The notes below the pieces were generated by a model. It was not told the DNA's origin, did no database searches, and saw only the letters and a program-made list of their open reading frames with translations. Made by a program: the position numbers and the translations under genes. Shown here one piece after another: positions 24,391-62,829 of a stretch of 64,000 bases of DNA. Source of the DNA: Candidatus Nomurabacteria bacterium (lineage in GTDB: Bacteria; Patescibacteriota; Patescibacteriia; Magasanikbacterales; UBA922); contig JACKFN010000004.1 in the NCBI GenBank assembly GCA_020632445.1, forward strand, positions 4,952 through 68,951. The letters are read 5' to 3'. Each line of letters starts with the position of its first letter. Position 1 is the first letter of the stretch.

Positions 24391-24465
24391 TGGTACCCCC
24401 GCTAGGAATCGAACCTAGAACCTCGGCTTAGAAGGCCAATGTTATATCCATTTAACTACAGGGGC
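24391..24465 (-). tRNA. tRNA-Arg (anticodon TCT), CCA encoded
   Basis: Reverse complement GCCCCTGTAGTTAAATGGATATAACATTGGCCTTCTAAGCCGAGGTTCTAGGTTCGATTCCTAGCGGGGGTACCA folds as a cloverleaf with anticodon loop CTTCTAA. Confidence 0.8.
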
Positions 24466-24565
24466 ATGAATTTTGCTTTAGCACTCGACATTGTCAGGGG
24501 CAAAGCATGGTGTTATCCATTTCCCGCCCAAGGCGGGTCCGCCTCGGGCGGAAACTACAGGGGCA
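24466..24565 (-). pseudogene. degenerate partial duplicate of the tRNA-Arg 5' half, interrupted by a 31-nt GC-rich double-hairpin insert
   Basis: GCCCCTGTAGTT[TCCGCCCGAGGCGGACCCGCCTTGGGCGGGA]AATGGATAAC… lies immediately 5' of the intact tRNA and does not fold as a tRNA. Confidence 0.35.
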
Positions 24566-24607
24566 TCTTGGGCAATGGGATCATTTTAGGGCAAAAGGAC
24601 CAAAAAG

Positions 24608-25558
24608 TCAAGGTGAGCCCTTCTTTCTGTGAAATTTTTTGTGAACTTTTTTGAGACCCTTATCTGTGATGTGAGTATATATCTGTGTGGTAGTAATAGA
24701 AGAATGACCAAGCATGGATTGCACGCTACGGATGTCAGCACCATTTCCTAGCAGATCAGTGGCAAAGGAGTGACGAAGTGTATGAGGGGTCACTGGTTTG
24801 GTGATACCGGCTGCTTTTGCCCATTTTTGAACAATGCGTTGCACGGAACGGGGCGTAAGGCTTCTTTCAGCGCTTCGATCGCTTGTGGTCCTTTTGTCGT
24901 GAGATACAAATAAACTTGAACAGATATCTTTGCGGGTACGCAAATACTTTTCTAAGGCACGCTTGGCATCCTCAGACAAAAAAGCAATGCGCCGTTTTCC
25001 ACCCTTTCCACTGACAGAAAATTCATCTCGCTTGAGGTTGATATCTTTTTTTTCAAGCTTTGCAAGTTCCGATACACGAAGGCCTGTACAAAAAAGCATT
25101 TCTAGTATGGCCTTGTCCCGAACGGGTATTAGTGGGTTCCCAACAGTTTTTTCCTTGAGGGGTGCTTCCAGAAGACGAAAGACCTCATCTTGCTCGAGGA
25201 AGGTTACCTCGCGATCTGGCATCTTCATCAGCTCGATTTTTTCTGGGGCAAGTGTTTTTACATCTCTTTTGGCCAGATACTTGAGAAAGGAGCGAAGGGC
25301 AATGAGGTGGTAGTTCTGTGTATTTTTTTTGAGTTCATCTCCGTGGACATCGATAAGACGGTTGAGCCACAAGCGGTATTTGCGAACATCTTCGCCGGTG
25401 ATGCTTTCGGGATTTTTGTCGCCAAACCATTCAATAAACCGCCTCAGGTAGAAATCATAATTTCGCAGTGTCTTCTGGCTGCGATTTTTTTCAATTTCAA
25501 GGTGTTCAAGAAATTGTACGAGATATTTTGAGAGTTTCATGTATATATTGTACGACAC
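24608..25558 (-). CDS. xerC: tyrosine site-specific recombinase, XerC/XerD family
   Basis: N-terminal SAM-like domain and a C-terminal catalytic domain with R…HTLRHSFATDLLGNGADIRSVQSMLGHSSITTTQIYTH. Confidence 0.85.
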   Translation of the reverse strand: MSYNIYMKLSKYLVQFLEHLEIEKNRSQKTLRNYDFYLRRFIEWFGDKNPESITGEDVRKYRLWLNRLIDVHGDELKKNTQNYHLIALRSFLKYLAKRDVKTLAPEKIELMKMPDREVTFLEQDEVFRLLEAPLKEKTVGNPLIPVRDKAILEMLFCTGLRVSELAKLEKKDINLKRDEFSVSGKGGKRRIAFLSEDAKRALEKYLRTRKDICSSLFVSHDKRTTSDRSAERSLTPRSVQRIVQKWAKAAGITKPVTPHTLRHSFATDLLGNGADIRSVQSMLGHSSITTTQIYTHITDKGLKKVHKKFHRKKGSP

Positions 25559-34785: not shown

Positions 34786-34814
34786 TTGACAAAATTTGCG
34801 TTATGTGATATACA
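34786..34814 (+). promoter_or_regulatory. sigma70-type promoter (TTGACA - 17 nt - TATACA, TGTG extended -10)
   Basis: ttgacaaaatttgcgttatgtgatataca followed by AGGAGG and an ATG at 34849. Confidence 0.5.
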
Positions 34815-34848
34815 GAGAAGTCCGAAAACTGCCAACGAAGGAGGTATC

Positions 34849-35637
34849 ATGGGAATCTCGGTCACGATCAATAAGGGGAAGCATTCCCATCCGATTCCGG
34901 ATGGGGCCAAGGAACTCCTCGAGGAGTTCTTCGGGAGCGCCGGACTCGAGGGTGAGATTACCGTCCAGCAGGGGGCGGCGGTCAAGGGCACTGCCCACCT
35001 GCAGGGCTTGACTAATGTCTCCATTAAGGGGATCAGTGGTCGGTACGTGATCGTCCGGGTTCAGCCCGGCAACAACACCACTGGTCGTGAGTACCAGGTG
35101 GTGACCCCCAATAACCTCTCGCCGCAACTTCTGTTTCGACTGCTCAAGTCCACAGCCCAAGAGCTCAAGGAAGGTGGCAGCAACGGGACAGTTGTCGGTT
35201 TCGATGATCTGCAGGACCAGGAATCGCAGATTCTGCGGCAGATTCAGGAGTGCGATGATGAACTCAATGCCCTGACCGAGAAGATCGGGCAGCTGAAGGA
35301 GTTTGTTGAAGCGGATCGCTTGCCTCTGAGTCGGCTCGAGCAGAAGATCGAGCAGGTCAGACAGCAGATCACGGCGCTGCAGGAGGCCTTGGAAGGTCAC
35401 CGACGCGAGCGCAATGGACTCGAGGAGAAGTTCTCCAAGTCCCAAAGTGATCTAGCAATCGCGCAGCATGACTACGAGGAGGCCGTGCAGAAGAGAGATG
35501 CCTTGCTGGAACGGCAACATGCTCTGCAGCAACTGCGGGCTGACAGGATAGTCGAGATCGTGCTCGATGCGGCGCATAACCAGAGTGTCGATCCGAATGT
35601 TGTTCACGCCCGACTCGGAGATCTGATTCGGGACTGA
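34849..35637 (+). CDS. high-GC (about 60%) hypothetical protein with a C-terminal coiled coil (foreign cassette)
   Basis: AGGAGGtatcATG start. A coiled-coil heptad region (residues about 130-240) spelled entirely in GC-rich codons. Confidence 0.55.
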   Translation: MGISVTINKGKHSHPIPDGAKELLEEFFGSAGLEGEITVQQGAAVKGTAHLQGLTNVSIKGISGRYVIVRVQPGNNTTGREYQVVTPNNLSPQLLFRLLKSTAQELKEGGSNGTVVGFDDLQDQESQILRQIQECDDELNALTEKIGQLKEFVEADRLPLSRLEQKIEQVRQQITALQEALEGHRRERNGLEEKFSKSQSDLAIAQHDYEEAVQKRDALLERQHALQQLRADRIVEIVLDAAHNQSVDPNVVHARLGDLIRD

Positions 35638-35691
35638 GCTTTTTCCCACAAATGACCCACCACTCGATTTCCCATCGCTCGAGAAATTCCC

Positions 35692-35718
35692 AAAAAACTC
35701 CTCTTTGAGGAGTTTTTT
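35692..35718 (+). terminator. rho-independent terminator
   Basis: aaaaaactcctctttgaggagtttttt. Confidence 0.6.
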
Positions 35719-35725
35719 GGTCGTC

Positions 35726-35754
35726 TTGACAAGTCAAAAGGAATGTGGTATTTT
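35726..35754 (+). promoter_or_regulatory. sigma70-type promoter (TTGACA - 17 nt - TATTTT, TGTG extended -10)
   Basis: ttgacaagtcaaaaggaatgtggtatttt. Confidence 0.4.
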
Positions 35755-35849
35755 CAAATGTCAAATTTTTGGCAACATACAGAGAAATTTTCTTTGTATA
35801 ATGCCCAAAAGGCAGAGACAATTTTTCTATCGGCAACAGAGGGAAAACA

Positions 35850-37109
35850 TTGGGAAGAGAGCATCGTACTGGTAAGCGTAGGGGAGGCGTTCGGCACGCA
35901 CATAAGGCGCGTGCTGTCGTGCGGGCGAACTGGAACAGTCAGGTCGCGGCGCTCAGGGCCGCATACAAGTCCGGCGAGGTCGTGACCGCCGGTGATCTTG
36001 CCAAGCGATGCCCGGGGGCGTTCGAAAACGCCTACAGGGCAGGCGAGTTCCTGGTTCGGGCTCGTCAGCATGGACTGGTGGTCCAGGATGGAAAGCGGGT
36101 GCGTCTTGTCGGCGACGATGCTGGGTCAATGACTCAGGCCGGTGACGAGGACATCGGCACAATCACCAGGATCGGTGACATGGACATCATGGTCCGCACC
36201 TTCTTCGAGAGCAGGACCCCCGCTACGGCGGTTCAGTCCTTTGACCACAGGAGTCTTCAGAAAGAGGGTGGTGTTCTCGGTGGGTACACCTGGGGCGCAC
36301 TCGGGATGTTGTGCCGAGTGCTCAGCGATCGACAGCTCATCGAGCATCCGGTGGTGGAAGGCTTCTTCGGGAGAGGAAGTCGATGGGTGCTCAGTGAGGC
36401 TGGTCTTACGCATCTTCGTGAGATTCAACCCGGTCTTCTTCCAGAGCCTGAGCCTGAGCAGCAGGAACACATGGCTTCAGCCACGGTTGAGCTGGAGGAG
36501 GTCGAGGCCGCGCCAAGCGTGCCGGAGCCAGAGTCTGTCGCCGAGCCGGAACCAACCGTCGAGGTCGACACTCGTCCGGAGCCCCTCAAGCCACGCAGCA
36601 TCGATATGCGTCGATTCCGCCATGATCGCATCGTGCGCGAGCGGGTGCGTCAGGGGCTCCAAGATGCACTCGATGCATCGGGTGGGCGAAGCTGGCTCAC
36701 GCTCGGCAGGGCAGAGATGCTCGGCTTGGGTGAGGCGCTTGCTGAGCTCGAGTTCCTCGGGTGGAACCTTGTACCTGCGGGGGTACGTTCCCGTGCCTTG
36801 GGCTACTTGGCAGAGGATGGTCATATCGTGCGTCAGCGCCGAAGTGGCGTCTACGTCTACAGCCTGAAGGGGTACGAGCCTACGGCTAAGGTCGCGGCCT
36901 CTGCTGTTCCCGACAGAGCACTCGAACCCATCAAGTCCACAGCGGTCAAGTCTGGTGCTGTGTGCAAGCCTAAGCGTACACGACCTGCTGCGACTCCTGC
37001 AGTCGCTCAGCAGCAGGCAACTGAGCCAGACCTCGCAACGATCCTCCTGAACCTGTTCAGCCTGATGGCGGAGATCCCCGACGATCGTCTTCAGGTTCAC
37101 ATCAGCTGA
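35850..37109 (+). CDS. high-GC (about 65%) hypothetical protein with two winged-helix-like modules joined by an acidic Pro/Glu linker (foreign cassette)
   Basis: The frame opens at a TTG after GGGAAA, so the true start is uncertain. EPEPEQQE…PEPESVAEPEPTVE linker. Overlapping alternative-frame ORFs 36142..36867 and 36477..37157 are GC artefacts. Confidence 0.45.
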   Translation: MGREHRTGKRRGGVRHAHKARAVVRANWNSQVAALRAAYKSGEVVTAGDLAKRCPGAFENAYRAGEFLVRARQHGLVVQDGKRVRLVGDDAGSMTQAGDEDIGTITRIGDMDIMVRTFFESRTPATAVQSFDHRSLQKEGGVLGGYTWGALGMLCRVLSDRQLIEHPVVEGFFGRGSRWVLSEAGLTHLREIQPGLLPEPEPEQQEHMASATVELEEVEAAPSVPEPESVAEPEPTVEVDTRPEPLKPRSIDMRRFRHDRIVRERVRQGLQDALDASGGRSWLTLGRAEMLGLGEALAELEFLGWNLVPAGVRSRALGYLAEDGHIVRQRRSGVYVYSLKGYEPTAKVAASAVPDRALEPIKSTAVKSGAVCKPKRTRPAATPAVAQQQATEPDLATILLNLFSLMAEIPDDRLQVHIS

Positions 37110-41859: not shown

Positions 41860-41900
41860 AAAGGTCTTAGGCAAGGTAAAAAGCCTTGCCTAAGACCTTT
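41860..41900 (+). promoter_or_regulatory. perfect 17-bp stem / 7-nt loop hairpin in the 5' UTR of cassette 41916..42512 (operator or attenuator candidate)
   Basis: aaaggtcttaggcaagg taaaaag ccttgcctaagaccttt, ending 1 nt before the GAGAGGAG Shine-Dalgarno. Confidence 0.5.
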
Positions 41901-41915
41901 GAGAGGAGTGAGAAG

Positions 41916-42512
41916 GTGATAGAAAAGCTGTATACAGCTCGCCGTGTAGCCTTCCACGCGCGGAATGGCTTTACTCAGCGTCAACAAGAGATGCTCGTGC
42001 GGGATGGCTGTGAGCTCCACACGATCAAAGGCGGTCACCAGTTCGTGGTGATGCGCTACGACGTGGGTGAGTACACGGGTCTCCCAGTGTACGAGTTCAT
42101 GAAGGAAATGTCGGATCAAAAGGATGCTTTTTTTTCCGTTCACGTTTTGCCTGTAGAGCTTGATGGGTGGAACCAAGTGGCGGTCATCCCGGCGGGGAGT
42201 GACTACTATGCGTTTCATCTAACTACCATTCGATGGGTGCGGGGAACATACGTGTGCATCCATTTGGGCATCTGTGGAAAAAGTGGTGTGATCGTCCTCA
42301 ACTTGCATCAGCTCGAGCGAGTAGAGCAGATGCAGAAGGTAGAAGGGTTGTCTTTTGACGGGACGATCTATAGAGTTGCTACGCGACACATGCATTTTCC
42401 CGGATTCCGTGAGTTGTCCGAAGATCAACCGGACATGGGAGCCGCAGTGCTTGGATCGCTCAGTGATAGGATCGGTTCGGTACGCGCTCACGAACTGCTC
42501 GTCACTCGCTAA
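41916..42512 (+). CDS. high-GC (about 58%) hypothetical protein (foreign cassette)
   Basis: GTG start 7 nt after GAGAGGAG; no recognisable domain. Confidence 0.5.
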   Translation: MIEKLYTARRVAFHARNGFTQRQQEMLVRDGCELHTIKGGHQFVVMRYDVGEYTGLPVYEFMKEMSDQKDAFFSVHVLPVELDGWNQVAVIPAGSDYYAFHLTTIRWVRGTYVCIHLGICGKSGVIVLNLHQLERVEQMQKVEGLSFDGTIYRVATRHMHFPGFRELSEDQPDMGAAVLGSLSDRIGSVRAHELLVTR

Positions 42513-42686
42513 CAGAATCCCACCAAAAAAGGTAGTCAAAACCCTGCCACAAAGCTACCCTTCAAAAAAATTCCAAAAGTGTATATAATAGCGGTGTTAT
42601 TTGCTGATTGCATCAGAAAAACTGATGCAGCCAGGAAACCACACCAGCGACCGGGGGTCGCACTTGCGCCAGAGGAGGGCGCAACT

Positions 42687-42905
42687 ATGAAGAGGCATTT
42701 CCTGCAGCAGTCGGATCCCAACGGCGACAAGGACCCGCGTACACACGCCAAGCGTGCGTGGGTGGGGCTGACCAACGCCGGTGTTCCCGGTGTTCCCCTC
42801 GACTTCGCGAGCAACCTGCCCCTCGCCATGCACGAGGCGACGGTCGCGGGGCTGCTCACGCCGCGTGTCTTCCACAAGGGCGTGAGCCAGACCGCCAGCT
42901 TCTAG
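42687..42905 (+). CDS. small high-GC (about 65%) hypothetical protein, 72 aa (foreign cassette)
   Basis: Perfect TATAAT at 42584-42589, an 8-bp hairpin at 42609-42629, GAGGAGG 7 nt before the ATG. C-rich tail after the stop. Confidence 0.4.
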   Translation: MKRHFLQQSDPNGDKDPRTHAKRAWVGLTNAGVPGVPLDFASNLPLAMHEATVAGLLTPRVFHKGVSQTASF

Positions 42906-51853: not shown

Positions 51854-51918
51854 TTATTTGGATTGACAAAAAGGGGGTAATCATGTAAAAAGGTGAGGCG
51901 TGGCACGAGGAGGTGAAA

Positions 51919-53151
51919 GTGGACGCGAAAATGTACTGGAGCCTGGACCCCGACAACTGGGGCATGCAGCAGAAGATCGGTTACGTCCCGGTCGATGATC
52001 CGGATGCGGCGATGGCTGAGATCATGGTGTGGAACGTCCCCTACATGCGGGGCAAGATCACCATGGACAACAAGGGTTACTTCTACATCTACATTCATAG
52101 TCGGCTCCGGTGGTTCCGTGTTGGGCATGGTATCTTCGTGCTCTACCGGATGATCTGCCACATGCTCGATACCCACGCGCGGGAGATGCCGACGATTAAG
52201 CAGATCAGAAAGGCCCTTGACGGTCTGGACGTGGACTTTCAGGTCCTCGAGCCGCCGCAGACCGACCGTTTCGGTCAAGGCACGTACATTCGTGGTGTAC
52301 TTAGTGCACATCTGAGTGAGCTCGCGCGAGCAGTTGACTGCGACAAGGTCGAGGCACGCAAGTTGATCGTGCACATGCTCGGCGTGCATGGACTCGGCGA
52401 GGGACAGGAACTCAAGACGGTCGTCCTCACTTGCTTGAGCGAAGACGCACGGGAGTCGCTTCTCGATCGGCTCAGCAGCATCAGCTCCATGCATCCGCAT
52501 CTGTGCTACTATCGTGCGCAGGTGCGCCAGATGATCCTGCTGCTTGAGGATCTTCTGGATCAGGGAGTCGCAGCCGCCCAGTCCCTGATCCGCTACCTTG
52601 ATCCCAGCGCCGGACAGCCCGCCAACATCTTGGAGACCAAGATCAACGCAGTCGGTCGTTGGGTTTCAATGATGCGGATCAAGCCCTACTCGCATATCCC
52701 GGGGTACGCTGTCAGTGAGCTCGAGGAGCTCAGGCAGTTGGCTCGTGTCACTGGGAAGCAGGAAGAAGCTCTCGCGCTTGCGCGTCGAATCCACTCGGGG
52801 CTGTTGATCATGAAGATGCGTCGCAGTCTTGCGCTCTCGGCGATGCACGTCGACCATGGCAACAAGGCACTGAAGACGAAGGATGTGCGAGCCTCCAGCA
52901 AGCCGATGCGCCAGTCGCTTCTCAGGCGGATCATCGCATCCTTGGAGAGTACCTCCAGACAGTGTGCTCAAATCGATGAGACCGGCTTCTCCAACCCAGT
53001 GTGCGACCAGATTCGTGCCAATTTGTTGCAGGTGCTTTCACACCTGAAGCAGATTCTGTCACTACTGGAAACTGACGGTGATAGGGAGGAGATGGGGAGT
53101 CATTTCTCCATCGCCGCGGCGCACCTCAAGAATACGGCTCAGCTCATCTAG
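51919..53151 (+). CDS. high-GC (about 60%) hypothetical protein, about 410 aa (foreign cassette)
   Basis: Promoter TTGACA (51863)-17-TAAAAA. GAGGAGG 5 nt before the GTG at 51919. C-rich tail cccacctctgc…caccccaccggccgcc. Confidence 0.5.
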   Translation: MDAKMYWSLDPDNWGMQQKIGYVPVDDPDAAMAEIMVWNVPYMRGKITMDNKGYFYIYIHSRLRWFRVGHGIFVLYRMICHMLDTHAREMPTIKQIRKALDGLDVDFQVLEPPQTDRFGQGTYIRGVLSAHLSELARAVDCDKVEARKLIVHMLGVHGLGEGQELKTVVLTCLSEDARESLLDRLSSISSMHPHLCYYRAQVRQMILLLEDLLDQGVAAAQSLIRYLDPSAGQPANILETKINAVGRWVSMMRIKPYSHIPGYAVSELEELRQLARVTGKQEEALALARRIHSGLLIMKMRRSLALSAMHVDHGNKALKTKDVRASSKPMRQSLLRRIIASLESTSRQCAQIDETGFSNPVCDQIRANLLQVLSHLKQILSLLETDGDREEMGSHFSIAAAHLKNTAQLI

Positions 53152-53359
53152 CAAGCATTTCAGTCGATCCCACCTCTGCACAGCGGTCACCCCACCGGCC
53201 GCCAGAAGATTCCCTTGACTTTTGTGAAAAAAAAGTGTAATGTATTGCAGAAGCTTTTTCGCTTTTTTTGTTTTAAAATAATGGAACAAAGAAAGCGACG
53301 AAGCTGCGAGCATGGGCTCAAAGCGGGGATCGCGCGACTCAATGGGGAGAAGAGAGAAG

Positions 53360-53590
53360 ATGGAAGCAACGAGCGAGGCTCAGGTGCACTTCGGTCTGGA
53401 TCGCAGCACGGGGCGTCAGGTGGCGGTCCAGGGCGCCACCGGTCGTCAGGCGCCCAAGCTCACCGACAAGATCCCGGGCACCGACAAGGCCTCGGGCATC
53501 GACAAGATCAACCCGGTCCAGAACCACGGCTTCGCGACCAGCCTCGGCGACCTGTTCGGCCCCCAGCTCAGGGGCGTTCACACCTCCTGA
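53360..53590 (+). CDS. small high-GC hypothetical protein, 76 aa, with internal repeats (TGRQVAVQGATGRQAPK / PGTDKASGIDKINP)
   Basis: Promoter TTGACT (53215)-17-TAATGT. Purine-rich Shine-Dalgarno GGGGAGAAGAGAGAAG before the ATG. C-rich tail gcacccgccaccaccc. Confidence 0.35.
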   Translation: MEATSEAQVHFGLDRSTGRQVAVQGATGRQAPKLTDKIPGTDKASGIDKINPVQNHGFATSLGDLFGPQLRGVHTS

Positions 53591-53774
53591 TCCTGGCTGG
53601 ACTCGTTCCAGCACCCGCCACCACCCATGAGCGCAGCGCTCGTCTCGCCAACCAGGCCTGCACCACCGCGGGCCTGTCACATACATCTATAGAAGCATAC
53701 AAACATTTGAACATATAAACATGGTGCCGATAGGGCATTTTTTGTTTTTCAAAAAAGATTTTCTGTGTTATGCT

Positions 53775-54569
53775 ATGGGTAATGTAATTATACTCTCTAT
53801 GGCAACAAGACATTGGAAAGAATATCTTACTCGACTCGGTTTTTCGGACAATGAAGCCTCGTTATATCTTACTTCTCTCAAAGAGGGGCAGCTTTCTGTC
53901 CAAGAGCTTTCACGCAAGACCAAGCTCTCTCGTGTGACTGTGTATGCGGTTTTGGAATCACTGATGAAGCGAGGGTTAATTTCTACCGTCCAAAAAGGAA
54001 AAAAGAATTACTATGCAGCAGAACCACCAGAAAGATTGTTTACGGTGGCAAGTCAAGAAATTGGAAAACTTGAAGTCATGGTTGAGGAGATGAAACAAAA
54101 TGTCTCAGAACTTCGAGCGATTCAAAGTGGTGATAAACCAGTGGTAAAAATGTTTGAGGGAGAGGAAGCCATGCTTATCTTTCAAGAAAAGCTTTTGAGC
54201 GCACCGGTCAAAGAATTCTATGAGTTTGGAAATATCGATGCCATACGAAATGCACCGATTCTTGGTGAAGTAGCATCGGATTTTTTTGAAAGAATGGATA
54301 AAAAGAAAATTGTTCGTTATGGCATGTTTTCTTCAAAGGAAAAAGACCCTATTAGTAAAAGTGATTTTGAAAAGGTAAAGAAACTGGAAAACATTGATGA
54401 ATATTCGGGAAATGTTTCGGTGTTTGGAGACGAAGTCATTATTTCTGGTATGAGTGGAAAGTTTATTTCTGTATATATTCAAAACAAAGAAATTGCCGAC
54501 ACCGTAAGAGCTCTACTACGAAAGCTTTGGAAGGAAACTCCAGAGAAAGAGATTAAAAAAACACCTTAA
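53775..54569 (+). CDS. TrmB-family transcriptional regulator
   Basis: N-terminal wHTH LSVQELSRKTKLSRVTVYAVLESLMKRGLIS and a C-terminal TrmB-like sensor region. Confidence 0.6.
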   Translation: MGNVIILSMATRHWKEYLTRLGFSDNEASLYLTSLKEGQLSVQELSRKTKLSRVTVYAVLESLMKRGLISTVQKGKKNYYAAEPPERLFTVASQEIGKLEVMVEEMKQNVSELRAIQSGDKPVVKMFEGEEAMLIFQEKLLSAPVKEFYEFGNIDAIRNAPILGEVASDFFERMDKKKIVRYGMFSSKEKDPISKSDFEKVKKLENIDEYSGNVSVFGDEVIISGMSGKFISVYIQNKEIADTVRALLRKLWKETPEKEIKKTP

Positions 54570-54600
54570 GGGAGTTTCATTAGCAAAAGAATTTTTTTCA

Positions 54601-54624
54601 GGGGCCATGGACATGGCCCCTTTT
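54601..54624 (+). terminator. rho-independent terminator
   Basis: ggggccatggacatggcccctttt. Confidence 0.6.
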
Positions 54625-55130
54625 AGGTGGGGCGGTGGTCGTTTGGCGTTAGGGCTTGGGCGGCCCTCGCGCCTGGTATTGGATGTTCAGGGTCGTCTCC
54701 TCATTCGAGCGTCAGGGACGCCCGACAAGTTGCGCGCGAGAATTCGATCTCACGCGCCTTGTTGTCGTTAGCGGCCGGAGCCCATGGGAACCTCCAGGTG
54801 TGCTGCTCGGGGCAGCTCCCGGTGGGTCATGCCTCCCTGTCTTTTCGGTTTCCTTCACCACTGTTTTTGATCTGCAGGTCTGTCTTGCACAAACAGACTC
54901 TTCCGTGGCAGGAGATGCCAGGGTTACCACAGATCGTGGACTTGGGTTCAGGAATAGTGTCCTCAGTTGTTCAAAGCGGCTTGGAGCAGCCTCGTGTATG
55001 AGGACTCTTACCTTAGGAAGGCCTCAGGCTAGGTGCCGACTTGATTTTTCGGCTTCCTTGCCTAGCTTGACCCAATTGTCGTGCCGAGACTATCACGGGC
55101 CTGCTCGATGGCAGTCTTGGGCACGCAAGT
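54625..55130 (+). other. GC-rich (about 60%) non-coding block; no convincing ORF in any frame
   Basis: Stops interrupt all six frames. The composition matches the foreign cassettes. It could be a structured RNA or a decayed cassette. Confidence 0.3.
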
Positions 55131-55612
55131 GTGTGTTGGCCCGTAACAGGAGTAATATATCACAAAATACAATATTTGTCAAGTGCTACTATACACAATG
55201 CGGGCATGTGCATTCATAGAGAAAAAAAGTGCTTTTTTCGAAACATAGCTCATGTGAGAAGTCCATTATGTATAGAACTCCTTATCATTTTAGTTGTGTA
55301 AATTTAGGTAAAAAAATAAGTTATCCACAAAAAATGAATAACTACTCTTGACAAGCAAATAAATACATGATAAAACAATAAGGTAGTCAAAAAAGTAAAT
55401 TGATTCTTTACAAACAATCACCACGAACCCAAGGGGGTTTTAGCTAGGCTCCTTTGGCATATAGCGTTTCGTGGTGGTTGGGTTATATGTCAAAGAGTCG
55501 AGCAAAGTCCCTCTAAATAAGGGGCTTTTTGCTTTGCCTGATTTCGCATCAGGAAGTTCCCAATGTTTTGAAAGTTTTAAGATATCGGGAACCATCACCA
55601 TGGAGGGACACA

Positions 55613-55714
55613 GTGAAGTACGAGCTGAGCGTCATCATGACGCCGGTCGTGTTTACGCTGGTGCACCTGGCGCTCATCGCCGGGTTCTGCGCCAGTCTGA
55701 CCGGCCGCATCTGA
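55613..55714 (+). CDS. possible small hydrophobic peptide (33 aa, single TM), high GC
   Basis: GGAGGG 5 nt before the GTG. Product VKYELSVIMTPVVFTLVHLALIAGFCASLTGRI. An overlapping Arg-rich frame exists, so this is speculative. Confidence 0.2.
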   Translation: MKYELSVIMTPVVFTLVHLALIAGFCASLTGRI

Positions 55715-55739
55715 TCGAGACACCCCCCGTCCGATAACC

Positions 55740-56140
55740 AACCTTCAATAATACTGGGTCAACCAGTCTCCTCTTGCATATAATTGCAGCTACTGGCGTT
55801 GCTTCCAGCAGGAAGCGACCCGGGTGCTCGAGGTGTGACCGCCGCTGTCCAACCTTTGTTCAGGCTCCCGCCATTGCCTGAACCATTCCCCAATGCCTCT
55901 TAATTGAGAAGTATTGGGGAGTAACTTCTAGGAGAATGCTTCCCGCCCGATCGGGCTACCCATTGAGATGGTCCCTAGGTTCAAAATTCCTTGCCTCGGC
56001 AAGACTACCTCCTAGGCCTGACGCATAAGCAGCGTGAATGGTAGTGCGCTGCGCCCACCCTGGCTCGATTCCCCATCGAGCCCCTTGATTGCCTCTTTCT
56101 GTTTTCAGGAAGTGGCTCAAAGGAATAATTTTTCATAACA
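55740..56140 (+). other. GC-rich non-coding region dense in nested hairpins (candidate structured RNA)
   Basis: TGTTCAGGC…GCCTGAACA, CCCCAAT…ATTGGGG, GCCCGATCGGGC, TTGCCTCGGCAAG, GGCTCGAT…ATCGAGCC. Confidence 0.3.
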
Positions 56141-56143
56141 CCC

Positions 56144-56193
56144 ATGCTTGTCACGTTTTCTCTTCACTCTGGGCCCTATGGCTCAGCGATGAA
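56144..56193 (+). repeat. repeat R1 (50 bp), a copy of the leader/start region of the cassette at 57124
   Basis: atgcttgtcacgttttctcttcactctgggccctatggctcagcgatgaa matches 57079-57128 with 3 mismatches. Here the ATG is followed by an early stop (atgaatag). Confidence 0.7.
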
Positions 56194-56296
56194 TAGAAAA
56201 TGGTATGTTTTTACTTCCTAAAATGATTGGGGAGTTAGTTGGAGATCTCTCAGTGTGCCAAATATGACATAGTGAGGGATTAACCAAGGAGCTCCC

Positions 56297-56977
56297 ATGA
56301 ACGAGTATGAGCGAGTCATTCAGGCCGGTGCGGTGGCGACGATCGTCGACTCTCACGAGTCTGACGGCGTCAATGACGTCGTGGTGCGAGTGGCCAATGG
56401 TCATGGGAGCGTGCTGTTGCTCATGTTGCTCAGCGGCACCGGTGTGGTGTGCACACAGCGCATTATAGCCGATGAGCTGGCGCACCAGCGTGAGCGGATC
56501 CTCAGTCGTGGGATCCACGCTGGCAATGCCAGTGTGAGGATCATCGACCTGGCAGAGTTTCGTCGGCGCTTCCCATCAAAGCCGTGTACGGTGCGGGAAG
56601 GGATCGAGGCTCACAGGCATCGCCTGTACGAGTATGCCGATCTGCGGCGCGAGCGGGGTGGCTCGGACTGGCGAGGTGAGATGCCGCTGACGGTCGACCC
56701 TGCGGTCAAAGAGCTGCTCGCTGAAAACCCGTATCTCACGGGAATAATCGTGAGAGGGGTTTACGCCAAGCGCGGTGGTGCCGGGTATTCGGTGCGACTT
56801 GGCTTCGGCAAGGCGGTCAAGTTCTGGGAGGAACATTCGAGTTCGTGTTCGGGGTTGCCTGTCAGCGTGAGTGTTGAACTCGTCGATGATGAGCCTCACC
56901 CGAGCTGGATCTTGTCGCCTGCGCAGGCTAACGTGTTGCGTTGGTACCTTGCGGTGACAGACGAGTGTTGCTCCTGA
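56297..56977 (+). CDS. high-GC (about 62%) hypothetical protein, 226 aa (cassette J)
   Basis: GGAG Shine-Dalgarno and an ATG at 56297. Its N-terminal motif AGAVATIVDSHESDGVNDVVVRVANG resembles the C-terminus of cassette K. Confidence 0.5.
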   Translation: MNEYERVIQAGAVATIVDSHESDGVNDVVVRVANGHGSVLLLMLLSGTGVVCTQRIIADELAHQRERILSRGIHAGNASVRIIDLAEFRRRFPSKPCTVREGIEAHRHRLYEYADLRRERGGSDWRGEMPLTVDPAVKELLAENPYLTGIIVRGVYAKRGGAGYSVRLGFGKAVKFWEEHSSSCSGLPVSVSVELVDDEPHPSWILSPAQANVLRWYLAVTDECCS

Positions 56978-57010
56978 CGCAGTTACTCTGCCTACCAAAT
57001 ACGCCTACCT

Positions 57011-57037
57011 CAATCACCACATTCAAACAAAGTTTTT
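57011..57037 (+). repeat. trailer repeat T1 after cassette J
   Basis: caatcaccacattcaaacaaagttttt; a copy lies at 57517-57543 after cassette K. Confidence 0.65.
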
Positions 57038-57078
57038 GTCGTGACAAATATTTTGTTGGACTTGTTTCACCAGCATCT

Positions 57079-57128
57079 ATGCTTGTCACGTTTTCTTTTC
57101 ACTCTGGGCCCTGTGGCTCAGCGATGAA
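57079..57128 (+). repeat. repeat R2 (leader plus start codon of cassette K)
   Basis: See R1. Confidence 0.7.
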
Positions 57129-57507
57129 CGGAAAACGGAAAATTGCGATGGTTATCATTCGTTTTGTTCGAGGGTCTGAGACTCGTGACATGGCCGTGGA
57201 CTTGGTAACCCGTGATGAGGCACGGGAGATTCTGGTCACCGGCCACAAGGCTGGCTTTGACTGGAAGATCGAGTATCGGCTAGCGAGCGAGATTGAGGCA
57301 CACCTGTGGATGGCCGCAGATTTTACCGCGCGGATCCTTCGTGCTCTGATGCGTGGGCTCCCTGTGAGGTTTGACGGCGTAACCTGGTTTCGGCTCGATC
57401 AGGCGGGCGAGATCGAAGACGTGATCGTCAATTCTGGTGCCGTCGTCACCATCGAATCAGACGATGATAATGGCTTGGTTATTATCAGAGCAGGACAGAT
57501 CCACTGA
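57124..57507 (+). CDS. GC-elevated hypothetical protein, 127 aa (cassette K)
   Basis: The ATG lies inside repeat R2. Its C-terminus SGAVVTIESDDDNGLVIIRAGQ resembles J's N-terminal motif. Confidence 0.45.
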   Translation: MNGKRKIAMVIIRFVRGSETRDMAVDLVTRDEAREILVTGHKAGFDWKIEYRLASEIEAHLWMAADFTARILRALMRGLPVRFDGVTWFRLDQAGEIEDVIVNSGAVVTIESDDDNGLVIIRAGQIH

Positions 57508-57516
57508 TCCCACCTC

Positions 57517-57543
57517 CAATCACCACACTCAAACAAAGTTTTT
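57517..57543 (+). repeat. trailer repeat T2 after cassette K
   Basis: caatcaccacactcaaacaaagttttt. Confidence 0.65.
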
Positions 57544-57751
57544 AAAGCGTGAAGTTGAAGATTTTGTTTGAAGGTTATAAGTATGTTTTTCACCAAAAAA
57601 GAACTCAAAAATTTGGATCAGGAGCAGCTCTACGAAGTTCGTGAAGCCTACTTGACACATATGAAAAATCCACAGGCATCAAAGTTTCAGTTTTTGCAGC
57701 GCAAACCAGTTCTTGCTGACATGTCGCTTGTTGATGATATGATTTTGCAGT

Positions 57752-58072
57752 ATGCTGCATAAGGTAGCTACGCAAACCGTGGTGAATAAAATTCTCAAGC
57801 AAGATAGAAATTCATATTTTTTTGCTCTCATGCTCTGGAAAATGCTCAAATCATTTGAAGCAGATGAGGGCATATGTGAAAAAAATCATCATTATATTTC
57901 TAAACTCCTGAAAGACCATAATTTGGACCTTGCGGATGGTCAAGACACAAATTTAAAAATCAGCGCTGCAGAGAGTCTTTGGTTAATAATGGCACTACGC
58001 AAGGTGGAGTTTATTGGTGAAAGGGATTTTACTGCCTATTTTGTCTATATAGAAGAGCTTTTTGGGAAGTAG
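57752..58072 (+). CDS. hypothetical protein (native composition)
   Basis: ORF only. Confidence 0.3.
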   Translation: MLHKVATQTVVNKILKQDRNSYFFALMLWKMLKSFEADEGICEKNHHYISKLLKDHNLDLADGQDTNLKISAAESLWLIMALRKVEFIGERDFTAYFVYIEELFGK

Positions 58073-58215
58073 GTGGAAGAAAGGAAAATTTTTTTCTCTA
58101 TTTTTACAAAAAAACGACCGAAAATAGTTTGCATCAATAGCTTGACACAGGGCTATTTTTTGTATATACTGAGCCTACTTATTTGTATGAAATATTTGGT
58201 TAAATTACTGTTTTT

Positions 58216-60180: not shown

Positions 60181-60714
60181 TTATGAAGATCGTTTTTTGA
60201 GTCCAAGATAATGATGAAGATTGTCTATATGCGTTTCGTGTCGATGTTGTTTGGATACAACCGCAGCAAGCTCAGTATCGTATTTTTTGTGAACTCCTAC
60301 AACATAGTCTGCATGTTCTAGAAGATTATTGTCGACGCGGTTGATTTCGGCTGTGAGACTTGATTCGATGCGGTTGATCTCGACTGTTAGGATTGATTCG
60401 ACTCGTTCGATTTCAGCCGTCAAGCTTGATTCGACGCGGTTGATTTCGGCCGTAAGCTCTTTTTTTACTTCTTGTAAATCATCTTTGGTGGCTGCATTGT
60501 CCTGTATAAAGCGTACTGTCTCATGGAGACTTTCAATTGATGCAGAATTTTGATCTACCTTATTACTGAGACCTTCGAACTCTGTTCTGAGGCCTTGGAA
60601 TTCTGTTTTGAGACCTTTGAATTCGTTGTTTAGACCAGAAAACTGGTCGGCAAGACCCTGGATCATGTTTGCCAGATCCAGCATAGTAGGCTGTTTTTGC
60701 ATAGTAGCATACAT
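60181..60714 (-). CDS. coiled-coil protein with tandem 11-aa repeats (SLTAEINRVES ×4) and 7-aa repeats (EFKGLKT)
   Basis: 33-bp tandem DNA repeats at about 60330-60460 on the coding strand. Confidence 0.5.
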   Translation of the reverse strand: MYATMQKQPTMLDLANMIQGLADQFSGLNNEFKGLKTEFQGLRTEFEGLSNKVDQNSASIESLHETVRFIQDNAATKDDLQEVKKELTAEINRVESSLTAEIERVESILTVEINRIESSLTAEINRVDNNLLEHADYVVGVHKKYDTELAAVVSKQHRHETHIDNLHHYLGLKKRSS

Positions 60715-62067: not shown

Positions 62068-62829
62068 ATGAAAACACTTATCAAAAAGCTCGAAGAGCTT
62101 GACTTTTCCGATAAAGAAGCAAGAGTTTATTTGGCTCTTTTAGAATTAGGTTATGCGAGCCCTGCCCAAATAGCTACAAAGGCTGGGATTAAAAGAACCA
62201 CTGTCTACAATGTCCTTCCAGAACTTCTTAAAAGAGGATTTATATCTAAAACGTTCGTCAAAGGAAAAAAGGTATTTTGGGTTGAAGATGTGAGAAAACT
62301 CAAGTTTGTTATTGACGAAAGACAGCAGAAGTTTGAACATCTTTTTCCACAGCTTGAAGCTTTACATAGCGTGCTTCCATCTAAGCCAAAGTTTCGTTAT
62401 TACGAAGGAGAAAATGGAATGAAGCAACTTCATATGTATGCTTTGGAAAAAACTATACCTGGAGATACTATTTATGAATATCTTGGGACCGTGGATTTTA
62501 AAAGGCTTTTTCCTGAGGAGTTTTATGATTTTTATCCAAAAGAAAGAACCAGAAGAAAAATTTCTGCACGTATAATAGCTCCTGACATTCCTGAGACCAG
62601 GGATATTGTGCAAAAAGACAAAAGGACGTTGCGTGAAACACGCCTTGCACCGAGAGATCAGCTTTTGTTTTCTGGTGATATGCAATTGTATCGGAATCAT
62701 GTAGCACTTATTTCTTATAAAGAAAACTTCATGGGAGTTGTTATTGAGAGTAAGGAAATTTATGAAATGCAAAAATGTGTTTTTGAGCTTTTATGGAACA
62801 CGCTTGCAGGTCCAACAGCAACACCCTAA
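62068..62829 (+). CDS. TrmB-family transcriptional regulator (second copy)
   Basis: N-terminal wHTH EARVYLALLELGYASPAQIATKAGIKRTTVYNVLPELLKRGFIS. Confidence 0.6.
   Translation: MKTLIKKLEELDFSDKEARVYLALLELGYASPAQIATKAGIKRTTVYNVLPELLKRGFISKTFVKGKKVFWVEDVRKLKFVIDERQQKFEHLFPQLEALHSVLPSKPKFRYYEGENGMKQLHMYALEKTIPGDTIYEYLGTVDFKRLFPEEFYDFYPKERTRRKISARIIAPDIPETRDIVQKDKRTLRETRLAPRDQLLFSGDMQLYRNHVALISYKENFMGVVIESKEIYEMQKCVFELLWNTLAGPTATP

What the first reader, a model, noticed from the sequence alone, without database searches (positions are those of the whole stretch)
54625..56290. About 1.6 kb of GC-rich, mostly non-coding, hairpin-dense DNA between a TrmB regulator and the cassette array
The region contains a 500-nt GC-rich block (54625-55130) with stops in all frames. 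It is followed by an AT-rich promoter-like stretch (55130-55470) and a long imperfect hairpin (CCACCACGAA…TTCGTGGTGG, 55415-55465). Next is a possible 33-aa TM peptide with a good Shine-Dalgarno (55613-55714). Last is a 400-nt block (55740-56140) packed with nested stems (9-bp TGTTCAGGC/GCCTGAACA, CCCCAAT/ATTGGGG, GCCCGATCGGGC, CTCGAT/ATCGAG). This could be a large structured ncRNA (OLE/GOLLD/ROOL/HEARO-class), the RNA component or guide of whatever mobilises the cassettes, or a decayed cassette. I could not match it to RNase P, tmRNA, SRP, 6S or a group II intron by eye.
Basis: seen in the sequence. Interest (0 to 1): 0.6.

Follow-up and report, generated by a model that had tools for sequence, protein, structure and literature searches.

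The report
Two divergent structured RNA genes beside TrmB
The 1.6-kb "non-coding" stretch is not one giant RNA but two back-to-back, promoter-driven, unusually hairpin-rich small transcription units (one carrying a 33-residue membrane peptide), an arrangement that recurs next to the same TrmB-type regulator in eight other distantly related candidate-phyla-radiation (CPR) bacterial lineages and matches no known RNA family.

Summary
The window is a Candidatus Nomurabacteria (CPR) chromosome. Region 54600-56210 folds far better than shuffled sequence, and the better-folding strand agrees with the promoter direction: z = -6 on the minus strand for 54600-55147, and z = -12 on the plus strand for 55385-56210. 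It is not one element. A 29%-GC spacer holds two divergent sigma-70 promoters. The near-consensus one (55182->55154, minus strand) drives Unit A, a ~0.55-kb GC-rich RNA that ends at the TrmB terminator. The other (55348-55376, plus strand) drives Unit B: a 100-nt hairpin, an intrinsic terminator whose left arm is also an anti-Shine-Dalgarno sequence, a 33-aa membrane-peptide ORF (GC3 0.94), and a 0.42-kb hairpin-dense tail. I found the same layout downstream of TrmB homologues (37-47% identity) in all eight other lineages that had enough sequence downstream of TrmB. Unit A promoters are conserved in every one; the plus-strand promoter is missing in one. Five of nine lineages (the window included) carry a single perfect TTATCCACA box in the spacer. 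The RNA bodies share no detectable sequence similarity between distant lineages. Rfam, Pfam, PHROG, PADLOC and homology searches give no family. No integrase, guide-RNA enzyme or pseudogene signal is present. Function is unknown. My best guess is a locally regulated small-peptide/sRNA module. There is no covariation or expression evidence for the window's own structures.

The parts
54600..54621 (.). GC-rich hairpin (AGGGGCCATG/CATGGCCCCT). It terminates TrmB on the plus strand and is the likely 3' boundary of Unit A on the minus strand.
   Evidence: 10-nt arms, 100% complementary. TTTT follows on the plus strand. On the minus strand the downstream tail is A-rich, so termination of Unit A here is inferred, not canonical.
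54600..55147 (-). Unit A: a ~0.55-kb GC-rich (58%), highly structured RNA transcribed toward TrmB. It has no convincing ORF: only a 20-codon ORF whose Shine-Dalgarno sequence lies 1 nt from the ATG.
   Evidence: Minus strand z = -6.1 / -6.0, against plus strand -1.8 / -2.8. No codon periodicity. ORF scan. Equivalent units in 8 other loci.
55154..55182 (-). Unit A promoter: TTGACA, 17-nt spacer, TG-extended TATATT (11 of 12 consensus positions).
   Evidence: TTGACAAA...TAnnnT is present at the same place and orientation in all 8 lineages compared.
55183..55347 (.). AT-rich divergent-promoter spacer, a probable regulatory region. It holds the only perfect TTATCCACA (DnaA-box consensus) in the 64-kb window, at 55321-55329, inside the palindrome AGTTATCCA/TGAATAACT (55319-55343).
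   Evidence: The box lies in the equivalent spacer of L006, L008, L011 and L015, and is the only perfect copy in each of those loci. Weak sequence similarity to the L014 spacer.
55348..55376 (+). Unit B promoter: TTGACA, 17-nt spacer, TAAAAC. The -35 box is perfect; the -10 box is weak.
   Evidence: Read from the sequence and a regular-expression search. TTGACA-N17-TAnnnn is at the equivalent place in 7 of 8 lineages. It was not listed by the strict scan.
55402..55499 (+). H1: a ~100-nt extended imperfect hairpin (core CAATCACCACGAAC / GTTTCGTGGTGGTTG) at the 5' end of Unit B.
   Evidence: L006 has a similar closing stem (CAGTTCACACCATACGATCC / GGGTCGTGTGGTGTGGACTG) followed by the same TTATAT and a terminator.
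55504..55535 (+). Intrinsic terminator (9-bp stem plus T-tract). Its 5' arm GUCCCUC (55507-55513) is complementary to GAGGGAC (55604-55610), which overlaps the peptide's Shine-Dalgarno sequence.
   Evidence: Terminator. The alternative anti-SD pairing is the minimum-free-energy structure of 55385-55740, while the centroid keeps the terminator.
55537..55592 (+). Two leader hairpins (CCTGATTTCGCATCAGG, and GTTCCCAAT.../...ATCGGGAAC) lying between the terminator and the Shine-Dalgarno sequence.
55602..55714 (+). Shine-Dalgarno GGAGGG (55602-55607) plus a 33-codon ORF (55613-55714): VKYELSVIMTPVVFTLVHLALIAGFCASLTGRI. I infer a single-pass membrane peptide.
   Evidence: Codon-position GC 0.58/0.39/0.94. 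Hydrophobic core read by inspection. No family hit. Small SD-led hydrophobic peptides also occur in Unit B of L014 and L016; short SD-led peptides (25-33 aa) occur in L011 and L015.
55715..56135 (+). Hairpin-dense, C-rich 3' region of Unit B, with about 10 consecutive stem-loops. Stops occur in all six frames.
   Evidence: z = -5.7 on the plus strand, -4.0 on the minus strand. -4.4 and -5.9 in 300-nt windows. Stops. Stems.
56139..56203 (+). Copy 1 of the 60-nt 'head' repeat. It forms a 20-bp hairpin (56154-56202) in front of the first GC-rich ORF. Copy 2 is at 57074-57138.
   Evidence: It is ~85% identical in relative L005 although the ORF behind it is only 34% identical. 98% of cells are paired in 3 copies, with 1 compensatory and 3 G-U-type changes.

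Best explanation
The region is a bidirectional small-gene module attached to the TrmB-family regulator gene, not one RNA.

Shown or strongly indicated:
- An AT-rich spacer carries two divergent sigma-70 promoters.
- The leftward, near-consensus promoter makes Unit A, a ~0.55-kb GC-rich RNA that folds strongly only on the minus strand and runs to the TrmB terminator.
- The rightward promoter makes Unit B, which folds strongly on the plus strand.

Inferred mechanism:
- Unit B is a tightly gated mRNA for a 33-aa membrane peptide.
- Most transcripts would stop at the terminator at 55504-55535, giving a ~150-nt hairpin sRNA.
- In read-through transcripts, the same GUCCCUC segment would pair with the Shine-Dalgarno sequence and block translation.
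- The 0.42-kb chain of hairpins after the stop codon would stabilise or insulate the message. It ends just before the 'head' hairpin of the next gene.
- Unit A would be a structured sRNA or small-protein mRNA. Its counterparts in other lineages carry SD-led ORFs of about 22-51 codons; the window's copy has lost or never had a good one.
- The adjacent TrmB-like repressor, and/or DnaA acting through the single TTATCCACA box in a palindrome, would control both promoters.

What the peptide and the RNAs do for the cell is unknown.
For: - Promoters.
- Strand-specific folding in the direction the promoters predict: Unit A -6.1 on the minus strand against -1.8 on the plus; Unit B -6.5 and -12.1 on the plus strand; 55385-55684 gives -9.2 on the plus strand against -3.1 on the minus.
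- Background z in other parts of the window averages -0.2 to -1.1.
- The same layout (TrmB, then minus-strand Unit A, then AT-rich spacer, then plus-strand Unit B) occurs in L006, L008, L009 (no plus-strand promoter), L011/L012, L014, L015 and L016. L007 and L004 are partial but consistent. That is every TrmB-homologue locus with enough downstream sequence.
- The same strand-biased folding is seen in relatives: Unit A minus strand -7.0, -7.4 and -5.9; Unit B plus strand -8.8, -7.6 and -5.6.
- Unit A is 10-20 GC points above TrmB in each locus.
- Invariant CTTGACAAA...T.T..TAT..T promoter columns.
- A single perfect TTATCCACA in the spacer of 5 lineages, the only copy in the 64-kb window.
- The peptide ORF has the codon-position signature of genuine GC-rich genes here.
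- Terminator and the alternative anti-SD pairing.
- In the L006/L007/L009 subgroup, Unit A has a conserved Gly-Lys peptide and a 3' hairpin with compensatory changes.
Against: - There are no transcription data, so TSSs, 3' ends and the read-through model are all inferred.
- The bodies of Units A and B share no detectable sequence similarity with those of the other lineages. Homology therefore rests on position, orientation, promoters, composition and foldedness, and covariation could not be tested for the window's structures.
- The Unit B -10 box (TAAAAC) lacks the invariant T.
- On the minus strand the hairpin at 54600-54621 is not followed by a U-tract.
- L008 Unit A folds only weakly (-2.8), and the L008 Unit B strand bias is reversed.
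- The loci were selected through TrmB, so linkage to TrmB is shown only in that direction.
- Near-perfect short stems could also be DNA-level palindromes.
- Some GC-rich coding windows also reach z = -4 to -5.
Confidence: 0.45

Rival explanations
1. Type I toxin-antitoxin-like locus. The 33-aa hydrophobic peptide would be a membrane toxin held off by its own structured mRNA and by an RNA antitoxin (Unit A or the H1 sRNA).
For: - A small hydrophobic SD-led peptide in an intergenic region.
- A very structured mRNA with possible sequestration of the Shine-Dalgarno sequence.
- A divergently transcribed RNA next door, as in tisB/istR-1 and zorO/orzO (own knowledge; PMC2887945, PMC3919570).
- Hydrophobic micro-ORFs also occur in Unit B of L014 and L016.
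Against: - I found no stretch of complementarity between Unit A and Unit B. There is no repeat of 10 nt or more between 54600-55147 and 55385-56210.
- No antisense promoter was found opposite the ORF.
- An RNA-RNA duplex calculation did not finish.
- The peptides are not conserved between lineages.
- Toxicity is untested.
Confidence: 0.15
2. Decaying foreign or duplicated DNA. On this view the GC-rich blocks are remnants of former GC-rich ORFan genes or 'cassettes' like those on either side, and the hairpins are incidental.
For: - The window is dotted with GC-rich ORFan genes that have AT-rich promoters and C-rich 3' UTRs.
- Block 2 sits where a cassette body would sit, directly upstream of a head repeat.
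- The exact 10-mer CAATCACCAC of the cassette tail element also starts H1.
- A 187-codon frame remains open in block 1.
Against: - No homologue for the 187-aa ORF among 5.8 billion proteins other than itself.
- No six-frame similarity to any other part of the window or to three fetched loci.
- No codon periodicity.
- Folding well beyond the GC-rich coding controls, and strand-specific.
- A near-consensus promoter is retained, and the architecture is conserved beside TrmB across lineages whose TrmB is 37-47% identical to the window's.
Confidence: 0.15
3. One or two genuinely non-coding large structured RNAs of a new class (in the sense of GOLLD, ROOL or OLE), with the small ORFs incidental.
For: - Extreme fold z-scores.
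- GC-rich islands in AT-rich intergenic DNA are the classic signature used to discover structured ncRNAs (PMC8723152, PMC6429828).
- Strong promoters.
- No credible ORF in the window's Unit A.
Against: - No Rfam hit.
- No conserved sequence or common fold between lineages. This is unlike known large ncRNAs, which keep conserved cores.
- The stems are mostly short, local and near-perfect rather than forming a multi-junction architecture.
- Unit A in most of the other lineages, and Unit B in several, carry SD-led ORFs.
Confidence: 0.15
4. A recombination platform or guide RNA for the downstream cassettes (integron-like attI/Pc region, or the RNA of an RNA-guided mobile element).
For: - It lies directly upstream of two units bounded by conserved head and tail hairpins.
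- A promoter points into them.
Against: - No integrase, transposase, RT, IscB or TnpB in or near the region. The ORFs nearby have no Pfam, PHROG or PADLOC hits. The only tyrosine recombinase found among the ORFs I scanned is XerC/D-like, at 24608-25558.
- By inspection, the head hairpin ends do not fit the attC R''/R' consensus (RYYYAAC/GTTRRRY).
- Only two cassettes are present.
- The TrmB-linked module occurs in other lineages without such cassettes.
Confidence: 0.05

Closest known systems
Type I toxin-antitoxin loci with divergently transcribed sRNA (tisB/istR-1, zorO/orzO, shoB/ohsC)
   Same: - A small hydrophobic peptide of about 30 aa, encoded in an intergenic region.
- A long, highly structured mRNA with an occluded ribosome-binding site.
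- A second RNA gene transcribed divergently from a shared AT-rich spacer.
   Different: - No complementarity between the two RNAs was found.
- The second RNA is ~550 nt, not 60-150 nt.
- There is no sequence relation to any known toxin family.
- The module is linked to a TrmB-type regulator and to a DnaA-box-like site.
Large GC-rich structured ncRNAs found in AT-rich intergenic regions (GOLLD, ROOL, OLE, HEARO, raiA)
   Same: - A long, GC-rich, gene-free stretch in an AT-rich genome.
- Folding energy far below that of shuffled sequence.
   Different: - No covariance-model match.
- The region is split into two oppositely transcribed units.
- There is no conserved core between lineages.
- The structure is mostly a string of local hairpins.
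- The characteristic neighbours are absent (IscB for HEARO, OapA/B for OLE).
Terminator/anti-SD leaders (attenuators, riboswitch expression platforms)
   Same: A promoter-proximal structured leader, then an intrinsic terminator, then a Shine-Dalgarno sequence that can pair with one arm of the terminator.
   Different: - No recognisable aptamer, leader peptide or T-box.
- The leader hairpin is a long near-perfect duplex rather than a ligand pocket.
- The alternative pairing is a prediction only.
Integron cassette arrays (attC hairpins)
   Same: The downstream ORFs are each preceded by a conserved imperfect hairpin that is better conserved than the ORF it accompanies.
   Different: - No IntI.
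- No attC R''/R' core sites.
- Only two units.
- The hairpins tolerate G-U pairs on the plus strand, which suits an RNA element.

Membership tests
Known large or other ncRNA families (OLE, GOLLD, ROOL, HEARO, raiA, RNase P, 6S, SRP, tmRNA, Y RNA, group I/II introns) | Match to the family covariance model | tested here: not met
   - Rfam 15 at gathering thresholds on the whole window finds only 2 tRNAs.
- At E<=10 on 53000-58200 and on 54560-55200, only chance-level hits to eukaryotic snoRNA/miRNA models and similar.
- Nothing in the related loci.
- ARAGORN finds no tmRNA.
HEARO / omega-RNA and other guide RNAs of mobile elements | Adjacent IscB, TnpB, Cas, RT or transposase gene | tested here: not met
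   The ORFs within 5 kb have no Pfam, PHROG or PADLOC hit apart from TrmB and FtsH.
Integron (platform plus cassettes) | IntI tyrosine recombinase next to attI/Pc | tested here: not met
   There is no recombinase gene between 50 and 64 kb. The only one found among the ORFs I scanned is XerC/D-like, at 24608-25558.
Integron (platform plus cassettes) | attC sites with R''(RYYYAAC)/R'(GTTRRRY) cores and extrahelical bases | tested here: not met
   The head hairpin ends are ACGTTTTCT and AGAAAAYG. By inspection of alignment A5 they do not fit the consensus.
Type I toxin-antitoxin | Small (<60 aa) hydrophobic peptide with a translation start | tested here: met
   33-aa ORF at 55613-55714, GGAGG six nucleotides upstream, GC3 0.94, hydrophobic core of about 25 residues.
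Type I toxin-antitoxin | Antisense or trans sRNA with extended complementarity to the toxin mRNA | tested here: not met
   - No repeat of 10 nt or more between Unit A and Unit B.
- No minus-strand promoter opposite the ORF.
- The duplex-energy test timed out, so short imperfect pairing is not excluded.
Type I toxin-antitoxin | Toxicity of the peptide and its rescue by the RNA | not testable with these tools
   Requires expression experiments.
Transcription attenuator / riboswitch leader | Intrinsic terminator in the 5' leader with a mutually exclusive alternative structure | tested here: inconclusive
   - A terminator was found at 55504-55528 plus T-tract.
- The minimum-free-energy fold pairs its left arm with the Shine-Dalgarno sequence, while the centroid keeps the terminator.
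- No conservation test was possible.
Pseudogene / decayed protein gene | Frame-shifted similarity to a protein family, or residual codon periodicity | tested here: not met
   - The 187-aa ORF has only itself as a homologue.
- Six-frame tblastn against the window and three fetched loci finds nothing except the head repeat.
- Flat codon-position GC.
- Caveat: only one frame was searched against the large protein database.
Replication origin (oriC-type) | Cluster of DnaA boxes with an AT-rich unwinding element at a GC-skew switch | tested here: not met
   There is one perfect box only. Cumulative GC skew rises monotonically over the whole 64 kb.
Bacterial Y RNA / Ro60 (Rsr) module | Ro60/TROVE gene nearby, and a Y-RNA stem plus tRNA-like domain | tested here: not met
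   - A TROVE gene follows Unit B only in L015.
- None was found among the window ORFs I scanned.
- No Y_RNA or YrlA model hit.
- The rest of the genome was not available.

The most novel reading that the evidence does not exclude
The locus would be one instance of a previously undescribed module, widespread in CPR bacteria. It consists of:
- a TrmB-family regulator gene;
- always followed by a convergent, strongly promoted, GC-rich RNA of ~0.4-0.55 kb with extreme secondary structure;
- then an AT-rich control region, which carries a lone DnaA-box consensus in most lineages;
- then, in eight of nine lineages, a divergent, equally structured RNA. It encodes micro-peptides in several lineages, hydrophobic ones in the window, L014 and L016.

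The RNA bodies evolve so fast that only promoter, position, composition and foldedness survive. That pattern would point to an arms-race or host-interaction function (toxin-like peptides, decoy or dsRNA-like RNAs, perhaps coupled to replication status) rather than housekeeping.
Probability: 0.3. Interest if true: 0.75.

Novelty: new variant of a known kind. Interest (0 to 1): 0.55.

Why it matters
CPR/Patescibacteria have tiny genomes with little non-coding DNA. A 1.6-kb gene-poor stretch that is retained next to the same regulator across lineages with only 37-47% TrmB identity is therefore unlikely to be junk.

If the units are expressed, they would be among the first candidate regulatory RNAs or micro-peptide genes defined for this largely uncultured radiation. 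They also come with a ready-made handle: consensus promoters, a putative operator and a cognate regulator.

The combination is itself an unusual evolutionary pattern worth explaining. Architecture, GC-richness and foldedness are conserved, yet no sequence similarity is detectable between distant lineages.

Practically, the result also flags a false gene call. The 178/187-aa 'protein' at 54656-55219 lies antisense to the likely transcript.

Tried and rejected
- **Rfam.** Searched at gathering and permissive thresholds on the window and on 9 related loci: nothing.
- **Phage DNA similarity.** blastn of the region against phage genomes: no match.
- **Protein families.** Pfam, NCBIfam, PHROG and PADLOC on the neighbouring GC-rich ORFs: no informative hits.
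- **Homologues of the 187-aa ORF.** Only itself.
- **Paralogues.** Six-frame tblastn of both blocks against the window and three fetched loci: only the head repeat.
- **Close relatives for covariation.**
  - GTDB and JGI scans with TrmB returned only 37-38% homologues.
  - The exact-protein look-ups of window ORFs returned only the same strain, 100% identical.
  - The nearest relative, L005, is a 2.2-kb contig that stops 136 nt upstream of the cassette ORF.
- **Alignment across lineages.** Global MAFFT alignment of Unit A from 5 lineages aligns only the promoter. All-against-all blastn finds similarity only in spacers and promoters, and within the subgroups L006/L009, L011/L015 and L014/L016.
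- **Covariance model of H1.** A MAFFT alignment of H1 from the window and L006 was too poor to build a covariance model.
- **Failed computations.** The first was replaced by a sampled scan.
- **RNase P idea.** GAAAGUC-like motifs in L006 and L009 suggested it; the permissive Rfam search rejected it.
- **oriC idea.** Rejected: a single box and no skew switch.
- **Y-RNA idea.** Suggested by the Ro60 gene in L015; not supported for the window.
- **Head-repeat 18-mer in IMG/VR.** One hit at a phage gene start, judged to be chance.
- **Micro-peptide look-up.** Exact look-up of the micro-peptides was uninformative.
- **Literature.** Searches found no prior description.
Full report
**Context.** The window is a bacterial chromosome segment of the candidate phyla radiation. 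The 226-aa ORF at 56297-56977 is identical to NCBI protein H6758_03125 of a Candidatus Nomurabacteria bacterium. Housekeeping genes (ileS, gyrA, rpsA, ftsH, pilB, pepA) are intact under the standard code. Two Logan contigs from SRR12358675 and SRR12358676 are 100% identical to the region. The host DNA is about 40-45% GC, but it is interrupted by islands of 55-66% GC. The finding lies between a TrmB-family regulator gene (53721-54569; Pfam TrmB 3.3e-16) and two GC-rich ORFan genes.

**Checking the observation.**
- The GC-rich block is at 54625-55130.
- The AT-rich stretch is 29% GC.
- The long hairpin has 13-nt arms at 55415-55427 / 55468-55480, 92% complementary.
- The 33-codon ORF at 55613-55714 has GGAGG six nucleotides upstream.
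- The stems at 55858-55883, 55887-55920 and 56062-56082 are present.

Hairpin density is far above chance. With dinucleotide-preserving shuffles:
- 55715-56145 gives z = -5.7 on the plus strand.
- 55385-55740 gives z = -6.5.
- The whole of 55385-56210 gives z = -12.1, from 20 shuffles.
- 54625-55130 gives z = -6.1 on the minus strand but only -1.8 on the plus strand.

As a control I folded 300-nt windows elsewhere in the window. Host DNA averaged -0.21 (sd 1.12). The GC-rich coding islands averaged -1.14 (sd 1.45). The window 55385-55684 on the plus strand reached -9.2.

One detail needs correction. Every frame of 54625-55130 does contain a stop. However, one plus-strand frame is open for 187 codons (54656-55219), and gene callers annotate it. 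That ORF has flat codon-position GC (0.54/0.57/0.52), whereas the genuine GC-rich genes here show 0.61-0.65 / 0.38-0.52 / 0.63-0.84. It has no homologue but itself among 5.8 billion proteins. I regard it as a false gene call. The 33-codon ORF, in contrast, has 0.58/0.39/0.94 and looks coding. The 'cassette array' is only two units, which share a 60-nt head repeat and a ~35-nt tail repeat.

**Anatomy.** The AT-rich stretch contains two divergent promoters.
- On the minus strand, TTGACA-17-TATATT with a TG extension (55182->55154) scores 11 of 12. It points into the GC-rich block, and the minus strand is exactly the strand on which that block folds well. I call this Unit A (about 55147 to 54600). 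It ends with a C-rich segment (..CCACCGCCCCACCT) and the hairpin that also terminates TrmB. It has stops in all minus-strand frames. Its only SD-associated ORF is 20 codons long, with the Shine-Dalgarno sequence one nucleotide from the ATG.
- On the plus strand, TTGACA-17-TAAAAC (55348-55376) points into Unit B.

Unit B consists of:
- a ~100-nt extended hairpin, H1 (55402-55499);
- an intrinsic terminator (55504-55528 plus T-tract);
- two small hairpins;
- the Shine-Dalgarno sequence and the 33-aa hydrophobic ORF;
- a 0.42-kb C-rich run of about ten stem-loops, with stops in all six frames;
- finally, the head-repeat hairpin of the next gene.

The left arm of the terminator (GUCCCUC, 55507-55513) is complementary to GAGGGAC, which overlaps the Shine-Dalgarno sequence. 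The minimum-free-energy fold of 55385-55740 uses that pairing, while the centroid keeps the terminator.

**Related loci.** No close relative of the region could be retrieved. The nearest TrmB homologues are 37-47% identical. Even so, every homologue locus with enough downstream sequence shows the same layout. These are L006, L008, L009/L010, L011/L012, L014, L015 and L016, with consistent partial views in L007 and L004. The layout is:
- TrmB, with a recognisable intrinsic terminator in most loci;
- a 370-550-nt block that is 10-20 GC points richer than TrmB;
- a minus-strand promoter, TTGACAAA-N14-TAnnnT, usually with the TG extension;
- a spacer of 21-34% GC;
- in seven of eight lineages, a plus-strand TTGACA-N17-TAnnnn promoter 120-166 nt from the other -35 box.

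This is documented. In a five-way alignment essentially only the promoter columns are invariant.

The strand-biased folding recurs. Unit A on the minus strand gives -7.0 (L006), -7.4 (L009) and -5.9 (L011), but only -2.8 in L008. Unit B on the plus strand gives -8.8, -7.6 and -5.6.

The spacer of the window, L006, L008, L011 and L015 each contains one perfect TTATCCACA, the DnaA-box consensus. It is the only perfect copy in the 64-kb window and in each of those four loci. In the window it sits inside a palindrome at 55319-55343. L006, L008, L014 and L016 share a TAGCTwAnnTwAGCTA-like palindrome in the spacer (read).

The bodies of the units are not alignable between distant lineages. Within subgroups they are:
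- L006, L007 and L009 share in Unit A an SD-led Gly-Lys-rich micro-ORF (..DIGAGGGKG..GGGKGK) and a 12-14-bp 3' hairpin with compensatory substitutions.
- L011 and L015 share a 25-33-aa Unit B peptide (..VVxGVVYFS..).
- L014 and L016 share ~400 nt of Unit B and a 38-aa membrane peptide.
- H1 of the window resembles that of L006: CAATCACCACGAAC.../...GTTTCGTGGTGGTTG-gTTATAT against CAGTTCACACCATACGATCC.../...GGGTCGTGTGGTGTGGACTG-TTATAT. The insertions are matched on both arms, and a terminator follows in both.

**What it is not.**
- Rfam gives nothing credible at any threshold for the window or the relatives. OLE, GOLLD, ROOL, HEARO, RNase P, 6S, SRP, Y RNA and introns are therefore not supported.
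- There is no integrase, transposase, RT or RNA-guided nuclease gene nearby. The only recombinase found among the ORFs I scanned is XerC/D-like and lies 30 kb away.
- The pseudogene tests were negative.
- An origin of replication is unlikely: there is one box and no GC-skew switch.
- A type I toxin-antitoxin reading fits the peptide and the structured mRNA. However, I found no complementary RNA and no antisense promoter.

**Best explanation and its status.**

Shown:
- The region is exceptionally structured, and the structure is strand-specific.
- It contains two divergent promoter-like sites, each oriented toward the strand that folds.
- The layout is conserved next to TrmB homologues in distant CPR lineages.
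- It matches no known RNA or protein family.

Inferred:
- Unit A is a highly expressed structured sRNA or small-protein mRNA.
- Unit B is a gated mRNA for a 33-aa membrane peptide, with a terminator/anti-SD switch and a stabilising hairpin tail.
- The adjacent TrmB-like protein and/or DnaA act on the spacer.

Unknown: the cellular role.

The main weaknesses are the lack of expression data, the lack of covariation data for the window's own helices, and the fact that homology between lineages rests on architecture rather than sequence.

**Novelty and score.** The components (sRNA genes, micro-peptide genes, attenuator-like leaders, a local repressor) are known kinds. I found no description of their conserved combination beside a TrmB-family gene in CPR bacteria, nor of the pattern in which architecture and foldedness are conserved while sequence is not, in Rfam or in the searched literature. 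I rate it a new variant of a known kind, of moderate-to-good interest, pending expression and covariation evidence.

Noticed in passing
window 4771-5853, 34786-37109, 41886-42905, 51913-53590, 56297-57507: At least eight GC-rich (55-66% GC, GC3 0.63-0.84) ORFan genes sit in a ~42% GC CPR chromosome. Those I inspected have their own AT-rich TTGACA-type promoter, a 5'-UTR hairpin, a strong Shine-Dalgarno sequence and a C-rich, G-poor 3' UTR. None has a credible Pfam, PHROG or PADLOC hit. Their origin is unexplained.
   Followed up: partly
window 37121, 53169, 57509 (also 38403 on the minus strand); L005 ~812: The motif CCCACCTCY, which resembles the 16S anti-Shine-Dalgarno sequence, lies just downstream of the stop codons of three GC-rich ORFs (4 matches against 0.7 expected). 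The 3' end of Unit A carries a similar CCGCCCCACCT.
   Followed up: partly
window 56139-56203 and 57074-57138; L005 56-120: The 60-nt 'head' repeat before each cassette ORF forms a 20-bp hairpin. It is ~85% identical in relative L005, although the ORF behind it is only 34% identical at the protein level. Across 3 copies, 98% of cells are paired, with one compensatory and three G-U-type changes. It is not conserved as a reading frame.
   Followed up: yes
window 57004-57037 and 57509-57543; 55415-55424; L005 1-45 and 812-860: The 'tail' element after each cassette ORF is CAATCACCAC followed by a 9-bp hairpin. The two L005 copies differ by a compensatory pair (ATTCCATCA/TGATGGAAT against ATTTCATCA/TGATGAAAT). 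The exact 10-mer occurs only three times in the window; the third copy opens hairpin H1.
   Followed up: partly
L005 137-808, compared with window 56297-56977: The cassette ORF keeps its syntenic position (before the 59-aa and ~101-106-aa genes and ftsH) and its elevated GC content in a relative whose FtsH N-terminus is roughly 80% identical by eye. The ORF itself is only 34% identical, so it is a very fast-evolving gene. L005 lacks the second cassette.
   Followed up: partly
window 55321-55329; L006 2052; L008 5371; L011 5305; L015 4792: A single perfect DnaA-box consensus (TTATCCACA) is conserved in the divergent-promoter spacer of five lineages, at variable position and orientation. It could be a DnaA site or the operator of the TrmB-like protein.
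   Followed up: partly
L015 5813-7666: A Ro60/TROVE (vWA_Ro60) gene follows Unit B directly in one related locus. This raises the possibility that some Unit B RNAs are Y-RNA-like. There was no Rfam Y RNA hit, and no TROVE gene among the window ORFs scanned.
   Followed up: partly
window 56143-56155 and 57078-57090; L005 61; L014 5207; L016 4125: The 12-mer ATGCTTGTCRYG occurs only on the plus strand downstream of Unit B in the window, L005, L014 and L016. In L014 and L016 it is an SD-led start (MLVV...) of a small hydrophobic ORF. The link to the window's head repeat may be chance.
   Followed up: partly
window 54656-55219 (+): Automated pipelines call a 178/187-aa 'protein' here (P0001). It lies antisense to the promoter-defined Unit A, has no codon periodicity and has no homologues, so it is probably a spurious gene call.
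   Followed up: yes
window 62068-62829: A second TrmB-family paralogue (Pfam 6.8e-15) lies 7.5 kb downstream. It is followed directly by a 322-aa ORF rather than by a structured-RNA module.
   Followed up: no
window 24391-25558: An XerC/D-like tyrosine recombinase (24608-25558, minus strand) lies next to tRNA-Arg (24391-24465). It is the only recombinase found among the window ORFs I scanned.
   Followed up: no
window 60332-60456: Three tandem 33-nt repeats (73-78% identical to the reference copy) lie inside the coiled-coil-like ORF at 60181-60714 (minus strand).
   Followed up: no
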